A program made the position numbers. From positions 2,976,001 to 3,040,000 of the forward strand of contig NW_024704749.1 in the NCBI RefSeq assembly GCF_018977255.1: a DNA stretch of 64,000 bases, written 5' to 3'. How positions within the stretch are numbered: position 1 is the stretch's first letter; each line of letters begins with the position of its first letter. Positions 1 to 63,000 of this stretch are shown in pieces. This DNA is from Callorhinchus milii. Taxonomy: Eukaryota.

Positions 1-3000
1 GGAGCAGCTGATTGACAGCGCAGTAAAACCTTCGGATTATTAATGATATCTCTGTCAAAACTCATTCACACGATAGAAAATTCCTCCCACCAAAATGCAG
101 TCAATTCACTTAACGGTATACTCTGTGAAGCGCTTTGAGACGTCTCGAATACGTGAAAAGGGTTATACCAAATTCAAGGCTTCATTCCGATGAATTCTCT
201 CGAAACATCCAACTGTCGCCTCTATTTCCAACACTGCCCAATTCTGGGAAGAAATGTGTGAACGCTTGAGTACTTTTTGGAGATTGAATAATCGCTATAC
301 AATGGCTGGGCACAACTTATACTTTCTCTGATGTCCTTTCCTGAGTCGAGGTGGAACGGGATTCAAGATTGACGGTTGTGCGGATAAACAATGACGGATT
401 TCAACAAACTGGAAGATGGTCCAGAATACAAATAACAATTCACACTTGTACAGAGCCTTTCACCTTGACCACTTACAACCAGATGATCATCATAATAATA
501 ATCCTTGCATTGCTTATAGCACCTTACCACATCTTCGAGACGTCTCAAAGCATTTCACAGAAGATACTGTGAAGTGAATTGACTGTACATTTTGCGAAAG
601 AACACGAAAAGCATCAGAATCCGAAACTGGTTTGTGTACAATCTCCTGGTTCAAAACATAACGAAATGAAACGAGCTATTTATAAATAAAAGCAGAACAT
701 TGACAGTTATAAGGATAACGAATCGGTTCCAATAGGTAGCCTTCGGAATTACAGCTGATCGGGATTATTGTAAACCCATAATTGTTTTATTGCACGCCCT
801 ATAAAAACAATCAGTCTTTCGACAAAAAAGTTTTAGAGACACGAACGGCAGTTATTGAAAACCTGGAAATCCGGTGGGAAAAGGAAAGGGGTTCGCTTTG
901 CTCAAATGCTGTATGAAGGAAAAGTCAAAACATTAAGCATTTGAGCAGCAAAATAAAGGAAAGATTCAGCAGCTGGAAAGAATGAATGCCAATTTCACAA
1001 AGTTTCATAGGGCGCTTGAAGTATATTGCATTGCATTTATAATAAATATGACTGCGCGGTAGACAGGAAATAATCAAGTTACATTTCCATAATTTAGATA
1101 ACATTTTTCTTTCATTTCTGCTTTGACCAGATTGAGCCGCCGCTCAACAGTCTGTGCCTTCACTCAGCGCCGGTTCACATCTGAACAATTACAGCAACTT
1201 GTGGGGAAACACTTGTGACATTACTGAGTCTCTGCTGCTGATTACAGTGGTGCTCCCCTCAGCGACATCAAACACCGAATCGGGAGAAAATAAAACATGT
1301 TAAACAATCAAATATCCGAATACAACTCTGCGGAAAGAACATAATAGATATATCGACTAATGGGAAGAATAACACAAAGGTTCTTTGCACAAGTCTAATT
1401 TCTGTCAAAATTCGCATTAATTCACTGAGCCGATCATAACATTGGAATTGTTCTCAAATAATGGATTAGTTGCTTATGTGAAATACTGGTCAGAGACACC
1501 TTTCTCAGAGTAATTCCCGGTCATCTGGGTTATAGTTGAAGACTGTTACTGGTTCTCTTGGATGTTTAACGTCTTGAAATATTCAAGTATTTACGAACGA
1601 GAAACATTTCTACGATGTTTTTTCATCTGAGATTGAACTCCTCACCAATCGGTTCAGCTATCCTTTGGAAAGCTGTTGGTTACCTTTTTGTGTTGGAGAT
1701 TCAAACCCGTGGGTGGGTTGGCGGTGATTGGAAGTAATCATATCAATGATAACAATAAAATGAATAAATCTGGTAACTGGAATTTGGTTGTCTAATGCAA
1801 ATCAAAATAATTATTGGAAAGTCGAAACAACAACAATATTTAGCTTGAACCCACCACGTGCAAAGTGTAGAATGCCAAAGATCACTTACTTTTCAAACTC
1901 AGTTCACTCCCTTTACCGAAAAAGAAGTGATACGGACTGCTCTTATGCCCGGCACCACAGGAGTAATCGGCGGCGTCCTCAGCTTGCACACCGCTGATGG
2001 TTAAATGCACGGCGTTGTTCCCTGAGTCCGCAGAACCAGAGAATCGATCAGGAATCCCCTGAGGTTTGCCGTTGTTACTTGACCAGAGAAGCACAGGGGC
2101 GCCGTCAAGCTTCTGCTGGTACCAGCTGGTGTAGTAGCTGCCGATGCTGCCTCCGGACATGGTACAGGTGATCTTGACGGTGTTTCCCGGGGAGGATGAG
2201 ATGGACGATGGCTGAGTCAGGGTAACAGCTGCGGTTGTGCCTGGAGAAACAACAAGTCAATATGTACATTGTAAAACCGTACAAATTGAATGTAACTCAG
2301 ATCAGTGCGGATTCCATAGCGCTTACCATGTAAACACAGGAGCAAAGCGGACAGGACTCGGAGCCAATCGCCCATCGTGAATAGTTTGATGAAGATCAGA
2401 GAGATGAGGGATTTTCCAGACCAAAGCCACTTTACTGCTTGTTCTCAACTTCTCCTTAAGAACCATCAGGTGATGTAAGTCCAATTGAATTAATGAACTA
2501 TGCAAATCACCATCCGGGTTGCACCGCCCAATCGGAGTTTTGTTCTGAACAGGAGATTCAAGATCATGCAGATTGGAGACATTTTACCGCCGATACTTCA
2601 AAAGATATTTTATGATAATATTACATAACATTTCTCTGTGAAGGGTTTGAATTATTTAAGAATTTTTCTTTCCAGTACGAAACAGATTACTTGATTTAAA
2701 ATGAAGGTAGAATAAAATAATTCTCAATAATTTACAGAATGTTGGAAAAGTCTTATTCCATTAAATACAAATATATTTCTCAGTTTTGTAGCATACGAAA
2801 CCTGTAAGATTTTCCGCTGCTCCACGTGGAACTACATTTTTGTGGAGCTCGTTCCTATGTTGGATAATTTTGTTGGTAAGAAATTTTCATCGGTGTATGC
2901 AGTTACAATTTGCACGCTGTGAGATGCAGACCTGAACAGGAGGCTATATTTCATGTCAATGGTAAAGCTTTTATATCATTGAACTATACAGCGGGTATAT

Positions 3001-60000: not shown

Positions 60001-63000
60001 CTCTCAATGAACTCTTTTTCTAACCTACTTTTACCGATTTGGTTTTCCCAATGTATGTGGAGATTGAAATCACCCACTATTATCACTTTACCTTTCCAAC
60101 ATGCTCCACTGATTTCTTGATTAATACCTTGTGATATATATATATATATACATATATGGAGCAATGTTCTCCCCTCAGTGATGTCAAACCCAGAACTGGG
60201 AGGAAAACCACTCCCATTTATATTTCCTGCCCCTTATTATTTTTTATTTCCACCCATATTGTCTCGACCTCCTGGTCATCGGATTTCAGTTCCTTCCTCT
60301 CCACTGCTTGTATTTCATCCCTGGTTAACAGGGCTTCCCCCCCCCCCCATCCCCCACCTCGATTCCCACAGCGCCTGTCTTTCCTGTAAACTGAGAACCC
60401 TGGAATATTTAACACCCATGCTCGATCTCCTTGTAACCATGTTTCAGTGATGGCTACCACAGCGTACCCATATGTATCTATCTGTGCTTTTAATTCATCA
60501 GTATTATTCCGAATGCTTCGCGCATTCTGATATAACATTATTAACTGGAGGATAAAAGAGTCACAGCACAGAGGAAAATGACAGTCATTTTACTAAGCTG
60601 CAGTATTTGCTATTTCTGTAATGTTGAACAAGGGCTTGATCATTGCAACGTGAATGCACTGGAAGATACAAATATTCAATTCCAGCAAACTGTCTGCATA
60701 GTATTGTGTCTATGTTTTCCCAGCTCTCTCTGTTTTTGTTTCAGACTCCAGCATCTGCAGTATTTGTGTTTTGTACATAGTATTGATGACGGTTTCAATA
60801 CATTGTTGAAAAACATCTACGAGCTTGTTTCCTTCTCTCAGGATATTTATCGAAAGTGTCGACAAAATGAATTTTTTTGTCACTTTGGACATTTGTGACA
60901 AAATGAACACAATCTCAAAAAGACTGCAAAGCACAATTATTATCATGAAAGATAGATTGCCAATTGTACATTGTACAAAACGCTTTAATCCCCACCATAA
61001 ATCAACCGCTCCTTCAATAGTGTTTCATCAGATAATAAGAACATGAAATCCGAAGAAATAAATGTTTTCATTTTTACCAAACACTGTAAACAAACCATTA
61101 CAGCAGTAAAATGCGATTCCAATATTGACATCGCTGCTGGGTCAACCTCCGATTTCACAATAATTTTGCTGGAAATAAATCTGTTTTGAGCAGATTGACC
61201 CGCTGCCCAGCCGGTATCTTCACTCAGTACTGAATCGCATCAGAACAATCACAACAACTTGTGGTGAAACACGAGACATCACTGAATCTCTGCTGTCAAT
61301 TGCAATGTTCTCCCCTCAGTGATGTCAAACCCAGAACTGGGAGGAGAGAAAGCCTTTTAAAAAGTCTGCAGAATGATGAATAAAATTGACACATCTATTA
61401 GTGGGAGGAATAACGCAATGGTTCATTGCACCAGTCTCAATTGTATGAAAAGGTGCTCACACTTTGACTGAACCGAATGCAACATTAGAATTATTCTAAA
61501 ATAATGGATTAGATACTAATGTGACATGATCATCACATAAAACTCTACTAGACTTATTCCCAGTCATCTGAGGATCAGGTGAAGGGGATTACTCACTCAA
61601 TTGGAAGTTAAATTCTTCAAATATTCAATTAGTTACAGACTGGAAACATTTGCATGGTATTCGGTTCCCTCTGAGTTTTGAATCGGTCCATTGGAGCCCA
61701 TTGTAAATCGGCTATTTGTCTTCTTGTGATGAAGATTCTTTTAAATATCACATGGTAATACCAAACTGGGTGAAAACACTGTAAAGCAAGGAGGCTGTTC
61801 TTCGATCCTAGGTATAACATTGATACCTCCTTTCACTGGTGTAGCTCATTATTTACCAGGATCTCCAGATGGTGGTCCAGTGAATCTCACTTCTTCAGTC
61901 CTTCCATATACAGACTGTTAAATAAAAAGGTTACCAGCATTTTACACCTCTTCACAAAACTAATTTCTTCCTCCACATTTTTGCTTTTGCTGTTTTTTTT
62001 CACTTTCCACCTTAACTGCTCAGAGATTCTCAAAGAAGCTTAGGGTTCTCGTGCTTCTTACTTCAGATTGTCCGAATTCCACATAAAGTGTTCACCATTG
62101 CAAAAATATAGGCCAGCTGCAAATATTACAGGAACAGTGTCAAACAGAATTGAACTGAGGGCAAGGCACGGACAGATACATATTTATACTGTAGAATCTT
62201 TAAAGTAGAATCAGATCAAAATAGTTATCGAAAAATCGAAACCCCCAGGTGCAAGTTATATAATGTCAAAAATCACTAACTTCTCGAACTCAACTTGATT
62301 ACCGAACAAGAAGTTATATGCAATGCGGCCATACTGGTTACCACAGTAGTAATCGGTGGCATCCTCCGGTTGCACACCACTGATGGTTAAAGTGCATAGA
62401 GGATTCCACAGAACCAGTGAATCGAACAGGAATGCCTTCAGCTATGCTTATGTTCTCATGCCAAAGAAACACCTGGGAGCTGCCAGGCTTCTGCTGGCAC
62501 CAACATGTCCAATAATTGCCCGCCCTCCTGGCTCAAGACACGGACATGGTTGATCTTGATGGCATTTCCCGGGCCGGTTGAGTCAGGGTAACATGTTAAC
62601 TGTTTCTTTTAAAAGCTGTTTTAAATCCGTGTCCTCAGGTTACCACCCGCCTGCCAGTGAATATACTTTCTCCTTGTTCACCCCATCAAATCCTCTCATG
62701 ACTTTGAAAACATCTATGAAGTCTCCTGTTCACCTTCTGTGCTCCAAAGGAAATAATCCTATCTTCTCCAGCCTCTCCTCATAACTGAGATTGATTCCTT
62801 GGCAATGCCAAACGTTGGACAAGTTTTCAAGATTTGGTCACTCAATCCACATCTTTCTGGAGGACACTGCAGTGTGCCATTGACTGCCAAGTTTCGCCCA
62901 CAAAATATACTGACAATTAACTTCACAGTATATTTTGTGTAGAGCTTTGAGACATCGTGAACGCATGCACTATAATAAATGCAAGGAACTTTTTNACTAA

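What the first reader, a model, noticed from the sequence alone, without database searches (positions are those of the whole stretch)
1890..62592. Tandem array of at least seven pre-joined lambda VJ-C units in all stages of birth and decay
All units share orientation and a repeating spacer. The window holds two complete intact units, one intact VJ whose C is just outside, one gap-truncated C, one unit with only 1-nt lesions, one C-only relic and one VJ-only relic. No canonical RSS flanks any V or J. Germline-joined type II light chains in clusters are established for cartilaginous fishes, so the class is known. The close tandem spacing and the distinct A, B and relic lineages may be unannotated in this genome.
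[Added by the scan's program, not by the reader: the finding's places include an assembly gap (unread letters, written N; its length is only estimated) at 10617 to 10646, 31632 to 31656, 49925 to 49949. Whether the letters on both sides are continuous or in frame is not known: test that first.]
Basis: partly seen in the sequence, partly recalled or inferred. Interest (0 to 1): 0.65.

Follow-up and report, generated by a model that had tools for sequence, protein, structure and literature searches.

The report
Pre-joined lambda light-chain gene array
This stretch of elephant-shark (Callorhinchus milii) DNA holds a head-to-tail row of small antibody lambda light-chain genes whose V and J parts are already fused in the genome, a well-known peculiarity of cartilaginous fishes, so the finding is correct but ordinary.

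Summary
All on the minus strand, the window holds five fused VJ exons (three intact, one with a 1-nt deletion, one wreck) and five C exons (two intact, one cut by a gap, one with two 1-nt deletions, one dead). Together they are traces of seven lambda units. The C exon is 100% identical to Callorhinchus milii light-chain cDNAs. Each intact unit is a 2.5-3 kb gene: octamer promoter, leader exon, VJ exon, 1.7-2.2 kb intron, C exon. No recombination signal is enriched or placed at any V or J. This is the published type II/lambda germline-joined cluster organisation.

- None of the three gaps is shown to be continuous. Gap 1 cuts a C exon and joins it to spacer, so unit order and number across gaps are provisional.
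- The unit "with only 1-nt lesions" lies in a contig with an abnormal excess of 1-2-nt deletions. Its frameshifts may be consensus errors.
- The species already has database lambda models. Whether these units are annotated could not be tested.

Extra finding: C exons are about ten times less diverged at synonymous sites than their flanks, which points to gene conversion. Interest is low to moderate.

The parts
1890..2507 (-). Unit A1, 5' part. Octamer ATTTGCAT at 2507-2500, leader exon 2375-2327 (MGDWLRVLSALLLCLH+G), and intact fused VJ exon 2240-1890. Its C exon is expected about 0.4 kb beyond the window start.
   Evidence: Searches give the exon ends, canonical AG/GT sites and open frame. 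One search shows 176-6115 matching 51315-57177 at 96-97%, which places the C outside the window. In one search the leader is 16/16 and the VJ 112/116 identical to cDNA cluster P0003.
10359..10616 (-). C10k: the 3' 258 nt of an A-type C exon (stop codon 10361-10359). It is open as far as it can be read and is cut at its 5' side by gap 1.
   Evidence: One search gives 257/258 identity to the C of A2. In one search the flank 9884-10616 is 98% identical to 49950-50683.
10617..10646 (.). Assembly gap 1 (30 N). It joins mid-C-exon sequence to spacer-type sequence, so the two sides are not continuous. At least the exon's first 65 nt and everything upstream of it are missing.
   Evidence: One search lists the N runs. 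One search shows 10785-11818 homologous to spacer copies at 23248-23465, 37059-38297 and 49075-49895. One search shows the C alignment.
12943..15614 (-). Unit B1, complete and intact. Octamer 15614-15607, leader exon 15481-15433, VJ exon 15342-14992, intron, and C exon 13265-12943 (ends ...SSCN*).
   Evidence: for the sequence and exon ends. for Pfam V-set and C1-set.
26767..27089 (-). Rel27, a C-only relic. The splice acceptor AG is changed to AA and an in-frame TCA is changed to TAA. No intron or VJ homology lies upstream. TE fragments fill 28.3-31.2 kb, and gap 2 lies 4.5 kb upstream.
   Evidence: One search gives the C exon 96.0% identity to A2 and B1, against flanks of 70-77%.
39084..42032 (-). 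Unit B2. Octamer 42032-42025, leader exon 41899-41851, VJ exon 41760-41432 and C exon 39404-39084. It carries three 1-nt deletions, between 41547/41546, 39252/39251 and 39147/39146. Its CDR3 is 21 nt shorter than that of B1. It is otherwise open with canonical splice sites.
   Evidence: Searches show the contig has an abnormal excess of small deletions.
50426..53539 (-). Unit A2, complete and intact. Octamer 53539-53532, leader exon 53407-53359, VJ exon 53272-52922, 2173-nt intron, and C exon 50748-50426 (ends ...SSCT*).
   Evidence: In one search the C exon is 106/106 identical to P0001 and P0002.
60543..62592 (-). Unit R62, a wreck. The fused VJ relic at 62592-62301 has indels and stops in every frame, a 5-nt deletion in the FGXG motif, and no leader or promoter. 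Intron remnants lie at 61071-61651 and C 3'-flank remnants at 60543-60972. The C exon was removed by a deletion of about 1.2 kb.
   Evidence: One search shows colinear hits to B1 that jump from 12915 to 14192 across only 114 nt of R62.
31657..38044 (-). Spacer copy P1 (6.4 kb, mostly TE-derived), downstream of the C of B2. It begins exactly at gap 2.
   Evidence: 97.7% to P2; 99.0% at aligned bases, 73 indel events.
43489..49924 (-). Spacer copy P2, upstream of the VJ of B2. It ends exactly at gap 3.
18187..24251 (-). Spacer copy P0, about 80% identical to P1 and P2 over about 2 kb. A LINE fragment interrupts it at about 19.7-22.8 kb. It lies between Rel27 and B1. Shorter diverged spacer pieces are at 10647-12139 and 7930-8198.
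   Evidence: One search finds a reverse-transcriptase domain in 21200-22672.
31632..31656 (.). Assembly gap 2 (25 N). P1 starts at its edge, inside a SINE copy. The other side is LINE-derived sequence with no homology to what precedes P2.
49925..49949 (.). Assembly gap 3 (25 N). P2 resembles a B-type 3' flank right up to the gap. The other side is an A-type 3' flank, whose paralogue at 9884 continues into different sequence.

Best explanation
The window is part of the immunoglobulin lambda (type II) light-chain locus of the holocephalan Callorhinchus milii.

Gene structure. The locus is a row of self-contained mini-genes, all transcribed from the minus strand, about 9-14 kb apart where that can be measured inside one contig. 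Each mini-gene has these parts in order:
- an ATTTGCAT octamer 126-133 nt upstream of the ATG;
- a 49-nt leader exon;
- an 86-90-nt intron;
- one exon in which V and J are already fused, including a fixed CDR3 and the FGKG motif;
- a 1.7-2.2 kb intron;
- one C exon.

How it works. Because V and J are fused in the genome and no recombination signals are present, a B cell can make this light chain by transcription and splicing alone, without RAG cutting (inferred). Diversity must then come from the different germline copies and from somatic hypermutation (inferred from published work on other species; not shown here).

How it evolves. The array grows and decays by segmental duplication (A1/A2 and P1/P2), by SINE and LINE insertion, and by deletion (the C exon of R62). 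Point lesions also occur (Rel27). The C exons are kept nearly identical across diverged units by gene conversion (inferred from synonymous-site identity).

Shown: gene anatomy, fusion, absence of RSS, lambda affinity, species, cDNA matches of the A type, duplication structure.

Inferred: RAG independence in vivo, expression of each individual unit, hypermutation, conversion.
For: Species and isotype:
- The C exon of A2 is 106/106 identical to P0001 and P0002, and the C exon of B1 is identical over 105 of its 106 residues, its last residue (N for T) being its own. Both representatives are named 'immunoglobulin light chain [Callorhinchus milii]'.
- It is 81-84% identical to Hydrolagus colliei light chains and 59-75% to elasmobranch 'lambda-1 light chain-like' proteins.
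- None of the 48 hits and none of the 89 is named kappa.
- The C exon aligns over residues 3-105 with a human lambda C domain at 91 bits.
- The V aligns best with human lambda-6 V domains at 117 bits, and sandbar-shark lambda AAC59643.1 is 64% identical.

Anatomy:
- Four units have a leader, and four have a conserved octamer.
- Acceptors and donors are canonical.
- The split codon at the J/C junction gives K with the C exons of A2 and B2 and N with the C exon of B1. Both readings occur in C. milii cDNAs...LSLKKPQGPS and ...LSLKNPQGPS.

Fusion:
- All five of the five visible V regions run straight into FGKG-type J sequence and a GTAAGT donor.
- The junction ...SPYH(F/Y)FFGKG is shared by A and B1 units whose VJ exons differ by 12-13% and whose introns differ by about 30%.
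- A dead relic, R62, is fused too. The joint is therefore inherited, not somatic.

RSS: three strict candidates against 2.4 +/- 1.6 expected, and 40 relaxed against 58.9 +/- 9.6. None abuts a V or J.

Expression:
- A-type leaders are 16/16 identical to cDNA cluster representative P0003, which stands for 108 member sequences.
- The A1 VJ is 112/116 identical to P0003, and CDR3 is identical.

Tandem arrangement inside single contigs:
- A1 with C10k (1-10616).
- B1 with Rel27 (10647-31631).
- A2 with R62 (49950-64000).

Gene conversion: between A2 and B1 the C exon has pS 0.026 (2 synonymous differences in 75.7 sites). The adjoining intron and 3' flank differ by 24-27%. P(at most 2 differences) is 4e-7 to 2e-8.

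[quoted passage not shown] PMC5192425 says the same (passage).
Against: - The tissue from which the genome was sequenced is unknown, so a somatic origin of any single joint cannot be excluded by sequence alone.
- No cDNA representative is identical to any VJ exon of the window. The best matches are 96.6% for A1, 94.8% for A2 and 82.8% for B1, so expression of these particular copies is not shown. B1 has no close cDNA match at the level of cluster representatives.
- A-type units have no AATAAA or ATTAAA within 600 nt downstream of the stop codon.
- All three gaps sit at the ends of high-identity duplicated blocks, so order, spacing and copy number across gaps may be wrong.
- Placement against kappa, sigma and sigma-2 reference sequences by phylogeny was not done.
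Confidence: 0.9

Rival explanations
1. Part of the apparent 'birth and decay' series is technical. Unit B2 is really an intact gene, and its three 1-nt deletions are consensus errors of an error-prone contig (31657-49924). The 'gap-truncated C' is simply an assembly break.
For: - Within that contig the two spacer copies differ by 70 small (1-2 nt) indels against 61 substitutions. The ratio is 7:105 for A1/A2 and 23:354 for B1/B2. Fisher p is 2e-16 and 1e-29.
- Fifteen of the 18 indels that could be polarised with P0 are deletions.
- At the per-copy deletion densities seen (3.0-8.0 per kb), 2.1-5.8 deletions are expected in B2's 723 coding nt, and 3 are seen.
- B2 is the shorter copy in 16 of the 23 small indels against B1 (p 0.047).
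- Read in segments, B2 has no stop, and all splice sites, cysteines and the FGKG motif are intact.
Against: - No reads are available, so the error rate is only inferred from paralogue comparison.
- A young pseudogene would look the same.
- The density of 1-nt indels between B1 and B2 is similar in coding sequence (3 in 723 nt) and non-coding sequence (14 in 2616 nt), which also fits neutral decay.
Confidence: 0.55
2. Several copies are assembly duplicates or falsely joined haplotypes, so the true array has fewer units than seven.
For: - Each of the three gaps abuts the end of a block that is 97-98% identical to another block: 9884-10616 with 49950-50683, and 31657-38044 with 43489-49924.
- The end of contig 1 (9884-10616) matches the start of contig 4 (49950-50683), as overlapping contig ends would.
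Against: - No pair is identical. A1/A2 differ by 105 substitutions and 14 indels in 5.8 kb, including 3 amino-acid changes in CDR2 and CDR3. The C10k region differs from A2 by 13 substitutions in 733 nt. B1 and B2 differ by 11%.
- P1 and P2 lie in one uninterrupted contig.
- Contigs 1 and 4 are not colinear beyond 6115/57177. One carries an intact A-type C where the other carries a LINE and a C-deleted relic with a B-like flank.
- Three contigs each hold two units.
Confidence: 0.15
3. The fused VJ exons are somatic rearrangements of a B-cell clone captured by the assembly, not germline genes.
For: The tissue of origin is unknown, and a fused VJ without RSS is what a rearranged allele looks like.
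Against: - All five of the five visible V regions are fused, on separate units, each with its own C.
- A and B1 share the same joint although they have diverged by 12-30%.
- A long-dead relic, R62, is fused.
- In cluster-type loci a clone would rearrange one unit, not all.
- Reviews state that lambda is germline-joined in every cartilaginous fish studied.
Confidence: 0.02
4. The units belong to another light-chain isotype (kappa/type III, sigma, or sigma-2/type I), some of which are also germline-joined in some species.
For: Published work notes that C kappa and C lambda are poorly resolved in trees (PMC5985310, passage). No tree with reference isotypes was built here.
Against: - The best solved-structure matches are a human lambda C domain and lambda-6 V domains.
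- Named relatives are lambda throughout, including sandbar-shark lambda.
Confidence: 0.03

Closest known systems
Type II / lambda (NS3) germline-joined light-chain clusters of cartilaginous fishes. Examples are sandbar shark lambda (AAC59643.1), nurse shark NS3 and skate type II.
   Same: - One leader, one fused VJ exon and one C exon per unit.
- No RSS.
- Multiple units.
- V and C of lambda type.
- The VJ exon is 64% identical to sandbar-shark lambda.
- Reviews say all lambda genes are joined in every species studied.
   Different: This is a holocephalan locus seen at sequence level over 64 kb. It has two interleaved lineages (A and B), relics, measured spacing, and a long ...[10 protein letters not shown] junction. 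Elasmobranch chains listed have a short junction (CYAA(S/R)(I/T)FGKG). The founding papers (Hohman 1993, Rast 1994) are recalled, not read here.
Hydrolagus colliei (spotted ratfish) light chains P0013 and P0014
   Same: These are the closest non-Callorhinchus relatives: C is 81-84% identical and VJ 71%. P0013 carries the same type of long junction...SSPYTFLFGKG. The joint type may therefore predate the split of the two chimaera families.
   Different: They are known here only as protein sequences.
Callorhinchus milii light-chain cDNAs and RefSeq/UniProt models (P0001-P0012, P0015)
   Same: Same species and same C region (92-100% identical). P0003, a cluster of 108 members, is the A type. P0004 (RefSeq) has the short junction CKASDTFGKG, like that of B2 (CKADLTFGKG when read in segments).
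   Different: No representative equals a window VJ exon; the best is 96.6%.
Tetrapod lambda loci (many V, then J-C blocks; translocon type)
   Same: Homologous V and C domains, and a J lying within about 2-3 kb upstream of its own C.
   Different: Tetrapods keep V and J apart with RSS and join them somatically. Here each C has one private, already joined VJ.

Membership tests
Cartilaginous-fish light-chain 'cluster' organisation | [quoted passage not shown] | tested here: met
   From ATG to stop codon the units span 2.54 kb (B1), 2.82 kb (B2) and 2.98 kb (A2). Seven unit traces lie in 64 kb.
Germline-joined Ig genes | V and J are contiguous in one exon, with no heptamer-spacer-nonamer between or beside them. 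| tested here: met
   All five of the five visible V regions are fused. The RSS scan gave 3 strict hits against 2.4 +/- 1.6 expected, none at a V or J end.
Germline-joined Ig genes | The joint is present in germline or non-lymphoid DNA. | not testable with these tools
   The tissue of origin is unknown. Indirect support: the joint is shared by diverged paralogues and by a dead relic.
Lambda (type II / NS3) isotype | The C domain is most similar to lambda C domains. | tested here: met
   The best domain match is a human lambda C at 91 bits. All 48 hits are light chains or lambda-like, and none is named kappa.
Lambda (type II / NS3) isotype | The V domain is of lambda type. | tested here: met
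   The best single-domain matches are human lambda-6 V domains. Sandbar-shark lambda is 64% identical.
Lambda (type II / NS3) isotype | Phylogenetic grouping with lambda against kappa, sigma and sigma-2 references, and the CDR1/CDR2 length pattern. The criteria are those of Criscitiello and Flajnik 2007, which is recalled; the paper is not held. | not tested
   No reference sequences of the other three isotypes were fetched.
Functional light-chain gene | Open frame, canonical splice sites, a promoter octamer, the conserved Cys/Trp/Cys of V, FGXG, the two Cys of C, and a C-terminal Cys. | tested here: met
   Met for A2 and B1, for the VJ of A1, and for the visible part of C10k. Not met for Rel27 and R62. 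Inconclusive for B2, which has three 1-nt deletions in an error-prone contig.
Functional light-chain gene | A transcript from this very unit. | tested here: inconclusive
   The A type is close to cDNA cluster P0003 (96.6% and 94.8% in VJ, leader 16/16). B1 reaches only 82.8% to any representative. Cluster members could not be listed.

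The most novel reading that the evidence does not exclude
The pre-joined lambda genes of the elephant shark evolve as a concerted multigene family. On this reading, ongoing gene conversion between units 10-50 kb apart keeps C exons nearly identical while introns and flanks drift to 25-30% divergence, and it carries even a dead C exon (Rel27) along.

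The same process may move junction (CDR3) segments between units. B1 and B2 are 93% identical in the VJ exon and 86-93% in most flanks, with 76% in the C-proximal intron. Yet B1 carries the long A-type joint and B2 the short joint of another gene (P0004-like).

That would be a RAG-independent, germline route to junctional variety in a locus that has given up somatic joining.
Probability: 0.4. Interest if true: 0.45.

Novelty: new member of a known kind. Interest (0 to 1): 0.3.

Why it matters
Germline-joined lambda genes are the textbook exception to somatic V(D)J joining. They are usually described from isolated phage or BAC clones. A sequence-level map of a holocephalan array gives a concrete substrate for asking how a locus without rearrangement keeps and renews diversity. 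The map covers spacing, two interleaved lineages, relics, TE load and homogenised C exons. It also gives a baseline of fixed germline sequences against which somatic hypermutation in chimaeras can be scored. The practical message for annotators is that gaps and an error-prone contig, not only biology, shape what looks like gene decay here.

Tried and rejected
- RSS search, strict and relaxed: no enrichment and none at V or J ends.
- A search for further V or C relics by tblastn at E up to 10: only chance-level hits of 9-17 residues besides the ten loci.
- A search for a C exon in R62 with word size 7: none found. A deletion of about 1.2 kb explains its absence.
- PU.1/IRF composite motif GGAANNGAAA as a hint of a 3' enhancer: 8 sites, no pattern tied to the units. 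Dropped.
- Canonical poly(A) signals: found downstream of the B-type and Rel27 C exons, but none within 600 nt for the A type. This is unexplained.
- Rfam: only tRNA-like heads of SINE copies.
Whether any cDNA equals A1, A2 or B1 therefore stays unchecked.
- Criscitiello and Flajnik 2007 (PMC7094790) is not held.
- The main text of Venkatesh 2014 has no light-chain detail. Its Supplementary Note XI, which may describe these genes, could not be seen.
- Five literature searches found no sequence-level description of the C. milii lambda locus in the held library.
- The joined leader-VJ-C protein was never assembled or searched. All searches were exon by exon.
- No structure or complex prediction was run. 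Pfam and solved-structure matches already settle the folds.

Full report
**What is there**

A six-frame listing and a tblastn search with the window's own VJ and C exon translations show ten immunoglobulin exon loci, all on the minus strand.

| Locus | VJ homology | C homology |
|---|---|---|
| A1 | 2256-1882 | outside the window |
| C10k | none visible | 10616-10359 |
| B1 | 15358-14984 | 13308-12943 |
| Rel27 | none | 27135-26767 |
| B2 | 41776-41427 | 39435-39084 |
| A2 | 53288-52914 | 50761-50426 |
| R62 | 62592-62301 | deleted |

Pfam calls the exon translations V-set (E 4e-17) and C1-set (E 2e-28). The other tblastn hits are chance-level matches of 9-17 residues.

**Whose DNA, and which chain**

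- The C exon of A2 is 106/106 identical to P0001 and P0002, and that of B1 is identical over 105 of 106 residues, its last residue (N for T) being its own. Both are named 'immunoglobulin light chain [Callorhinchus milii]'.
- It is 81-84% identical to Hydrolagus colliei light chains.
- It is 59-75% identical to proteins named 'immunoglobulin lambda-1 light chain-like' from sharks, skates and rays.
- The window is therefore elephant-shark DNA, not human.
- Against solved structures, the C exon aligns best with a human lambda C domain at 91 bits.
- The VJ exon aligns best with human lambda-6 V domains at 117 bits.
- Sandbar-shark lambda chain AAC59643.1 is 64% identical to the VJ exon.
- No hit (0 of 48) or (0 of 89) is named kappa.
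- I did not build a tree with kappa, sigma and sigma-2 references.

**Gene anatomy**

Four units (A1, B1, B2, A2) share these parts:
- An ATTTGCAT octamer 126-133 nt upstream of the ATG.
- A 49-nt leader exon, MGDWLRVLSALLLCLH in A and MGNWLRVLAAL(F/L)LCLH in B, ending with the first base of a Gly codon and a GT donor.
- An 86-90-nt intron ending ...TCTCCAG.
- A VJ exon of 351 nt (329 nt in B2) that runs without break from framework 1 through ...DY(Y/S)C, a fixed CDR3 and FGKG(T/S)(K/E)LSLK, ending in one extra A and a GTAAGT donor.
- An intron of 1.7-2.2 kb.
- A 323-nt C exon after ...CCTTCCAG, ending ...SSC(T/N) and a stop codon.

The split codon at the J/C junction reads AAG (K) with the C exons of A2 and B2 and AAC (N) with the C exon of B1. 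Both ...LSLKKPQGPS and ...LSLKNPQGPS occur among the species' cDNA proteins.

The spliced model was searched exon by exon only. The joined protein was never assembled or searched.

**Fusion and RSS**

- All five of the five visible V regions are fused to J.
- A scan for CACAGTG (CAC fixed, at most 1 mismatch), a 12 +/- 1 or 23 +/- 1 spacer and ACAAAAACC (at most 2 mismatches) gave 3 sites. Thirty Markov-2 simulations gave 2.4 +/- 1.6.
- The relaxed scan gave 40 sites against 58.9 +/- 9.6.
- No site abuts a V or J end, and two of the three strict sites lie in SINE copies.
- The junction ...SPYH(F/Y)FFGKG is shared by A units and B1. Their VJ exons differ by 12-13%, and their J-C introns differ by about 30% at aligned bases.
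- The long-dead R62 is fused too. The joint is therefore inherited through duplication and is not a somatic event.

**The seven units, one by one**

- A2 and B1 are complete and open.
- A1 has an intact leader and VJ. From 176 = 51315 in the A1/A2 alignment, its C should start about 0.4 kb beyond the window.
- C10k is the last 258 nt of an A-type C exon, 257/258 identical to A2, cut by gap 1.
- B2 has three 1-nt deletions, between 41547/41546, 39252/39251 and 39147/39146, and a CDR3 shorter by 21 nt. Read in segments it has no stop and keeps every landmark residue.
- Rel27 has its acceptor AG changed to AA and one in-frame TAA. There is no intron or VJ homology upstream. LINE and SINE pieces fill 28.3-31.2 kb, and gap 2 follows.
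- R62 keeps a broken fused VJ, intron remnants and C 3'-flank remnants. Only 114 nt stand where B1 has 1277 nt including the C exon, so the C exon was deleted. It has no leader or promoter homology.

**The gaps, tested first**

Gap 1 (10617-10646):
- Its low side is codon-for-codon C exon, beginning at ...ATLVCLVNDF.
- Its high side reads QLKTGCC in that frame. From 10785 onward it is homologous to the spacer that follows other C exons.
- The 65 missing exon bases and the acceptor cannot fit in 30 N.
- The two sides are not continuous. The apparent 2.6 kb between the C of B1 and C10k is an artefact of the join.

Gap 2 (31632-31656):
- Spacer copy P1 begins exactly at the gap edge, inside a SINE.
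- The other side is LINE-derived and has no homology to what precedes the paralogous P2.

Gap 3 (49925-49949):
- P2 is 99% identical to P1 up to the gap. P1 continues into the B-type 3' flank.
- The other side of the gap is an A-type 3' flank, which is not homologous to the B-type flank beyond about 100 nt.
- The A-type flank's paralogue at 9884 continues into different sequence.
- Continuity is not shown, and a hidden unit is possible.

Only gap 1 touches an exon.

What is safe is the evidence inside each contig. Three contigs each hold two same-orientation units: A1 with C10k, B1 with Rel27, and A2 with R62. The fourth holds B2 between two spacer copies.

**Are the copies assembly duplicates?**

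No pair is identical:
- A1 and A2 differ by 105 substitutions and 14 indel events over 5.8 kb (98.2% at aligned bases). Five of these substitutions lie in the VJ exon, and three change CDR2/CDR3 residues.
- The C10k region differs from A2 by 13 substitutions in 733 nt.
- B1 and B2 differ by 11%.

Contigs 1 and 4 stop being colinear at 6115/57177. False haplotype joins cannot be excluded without reads, but they would not remove the array.

**An assembly-quality warning**

| Pair compared | Small (1-2 nt) indels | Substitutions |
|---|---|---|
| P1 / P2 (same contig, 31657-49924) | 70 | 61 |
| A1 / A2 | 7 | 105 |
| B1 / B2 | 23 | 354 |

- Fisher p is 2e-16 and 1e-29.
- The P1/P2 indels are spread evenly at about 10 per kb.
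- With P0 as outgroup, 15 of the 18 small indels that could be polarised are deletions.
- This is what an unpolished long-read consensus looks like.
- At those densities, 2.1-5.8 deletions are expected in the 723 coding bases of B2, which lies in the same contig. Three are seen.
- I therefore rate it about even that B2 is in truth intact.
- Against this reading, 1-nt indels between B1 and B2 are about as dense in non-coding as in coding sequence (14 in 2616 nt against 3 in 723 nt). A young pseudogene would show the same.

**Lineages and concerted evolution**

VJ exon identity:

| Pair | Identity |
|---|---|
| A1-A2 | 98.6% |
| B1-B2 | 92.7% |
| A-B | 84-87.5% |
| R62 to any | about 70% |

- C exons are 98.1-98.8% identical between A and B (4-6 differences in 321-323 nt).
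- The last 400 nt of the intron and the first 400 nt after the stop codon are only 68-76% identical between A and B.
- Between A2 and B1 there are 2 synonymous differences in 75.7 synonymous sites (pS 0.026). At flank-like divergence, the probability of at most 2 differences is 4e-7 to 2e-8.
- The dead Rel27 C exon has the same pS (0.026) but pN 0.041-0.045, while its flanks are 70-77% identical.
- The simplest reading is repeated gene conversion of the C exon between units, with Rel27 converted until recently.
- In VJ exons pN (0.14) exceeds pS (0.09-0.11) between A and B1, as expected for antigen-binding loops.
- B1 and B2 carry different joint types. B1 has the long GAGDSNSPYHYF. B2 has the short KADLT, close to KASDT of RefSeq model P0004. 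This hints that junction segments are also exchanged, but I did not test it.

**Expression**

- P0003 represents a 90% cluster of 108 sequences. It has the A-type leader (16/16), the same CDR3 as A1, and 112/116 identity to the A1 VJ (110/116 to A2).
- The differences sit in framework 1, CDR1 and CDR2. They may reflect another A copy, an allele or hypermutation.
- B1 reaches only 82.8% to any representative.

**Surroundings**

- The spacers are largely TE-derived.
- A SINE of about 310 nt with a tRNA-like head is present in at least 13 copies. Rfam finds 8 tRNA hits, and one search lists 12 partners of the copy at 11816-12127.
- A LINE with endonuclease and reverse-transcriptase domains lies at about 57.6-60.6 kb on the minus strand.
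- An inverted pair of reverse-transcriptase fragments lies at 21548-22752 and 28326-29545.

**Comparison with what is known**

[quoted passage not shown] - Joined genes are thought to arise by RAG activity in germ cells (PMC2193156, abstract start and passages).
- The elephant-shark genome paper reports lambda genes according to those reviews and to PMC5985310 (passages). Its main text has no light-chain detail, and its supplement was not visible.
- Five searches of the held library found no sequence-level map of this locus.

**Verdict**

This is a correct and careful observation of a known kind of locus. The new content is local detail: spacing, the A and B lineages, the relics, homogenised C exons, and a warning about gaps and an error-prone contig.

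Noticed in passing
window 31657-49924: The contig between gaps 2 and 3 shows 70 small (1-2 nt) indels against 61 substitutions between its two spacer copies. Most are deletions and they are evenly spread. The pattern looks like unpolished long-read consensus, so any frameshift called in this stretch is suspect.
   Followed up: yes
window C exons 12943-13265, 39084-39404, 50426-50748, 26767-27089: C exons are 96-99% identical across units whose introns and 3' flanks are only 65-77% identical. pS is 0.026 against flank divergence of about 0.25. This suggests gene conversion, which reached even the dead copy.
   Followed up: yes
window 11816-12127 and at least 12 further copies (e.g. 16305-16613, 24427-24741, 29559-29862, 39648-39954, 43299-43620): A SINE of about 310 nt with a tRNA-like head (8 Rfam tRNA hits) occurs in both orientations. 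Copies lie in J-C introns and spacers. Gap 2 sits inside one copy.
   Followed up: partly
window 57563-60600 (-); 19731-22752 (+); 28326-29545 (-); 30166-31249: LINE elements and fragments with endonuclease and reverse-transcriptase domains. One sits between R62 and A2. An inverted 92-94% pair flanks the Rel27 region.
   Followed up: partly
window 9759-10358 and 49950-50425: A-type units have no AATAAA or ATTAAA within 600 nt downstream of the stop codon (476 nt before gap 3 in A2). Yet A-type cDNAs are the most numerous cluster, so a variant poly(A) signal must be used.
   Followed up: no
window 1802-1795, 52844-52837, 41287-41280 (-): A second ATTTGCAT octamer lies in the J-C intron shortly after the J donor in A1, A2 and B2, but not in B1. 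It could be a regulatory element or chance.
   Followed up: no
window 7930-8198, 10785-11184, 23248-23465, 37059-37274, 49075-49159: A block of a few hundred nt lies 1.3-3.3 kb downstream of every C exon. It is conserved at syntenic positions only, at up to 85% identity. It may be ancestral spacer or a candidate downstream control element.
   Followed up: no
window 62995: A single N stands inside a SINE copy upstream of the R62 relic.
   Followed up: no
window 41470-41471 versus 15051-15031: B1 and B2 are sister units, 93% identical in the VJ exon and 86-93% in most flanks (76% in the C-proximal intron), but their CDR3 differs by 21 nt and in type: long A-like against short P0004-like. This may reflect exchange of junction segments between joined genes.
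   Followed up: partly
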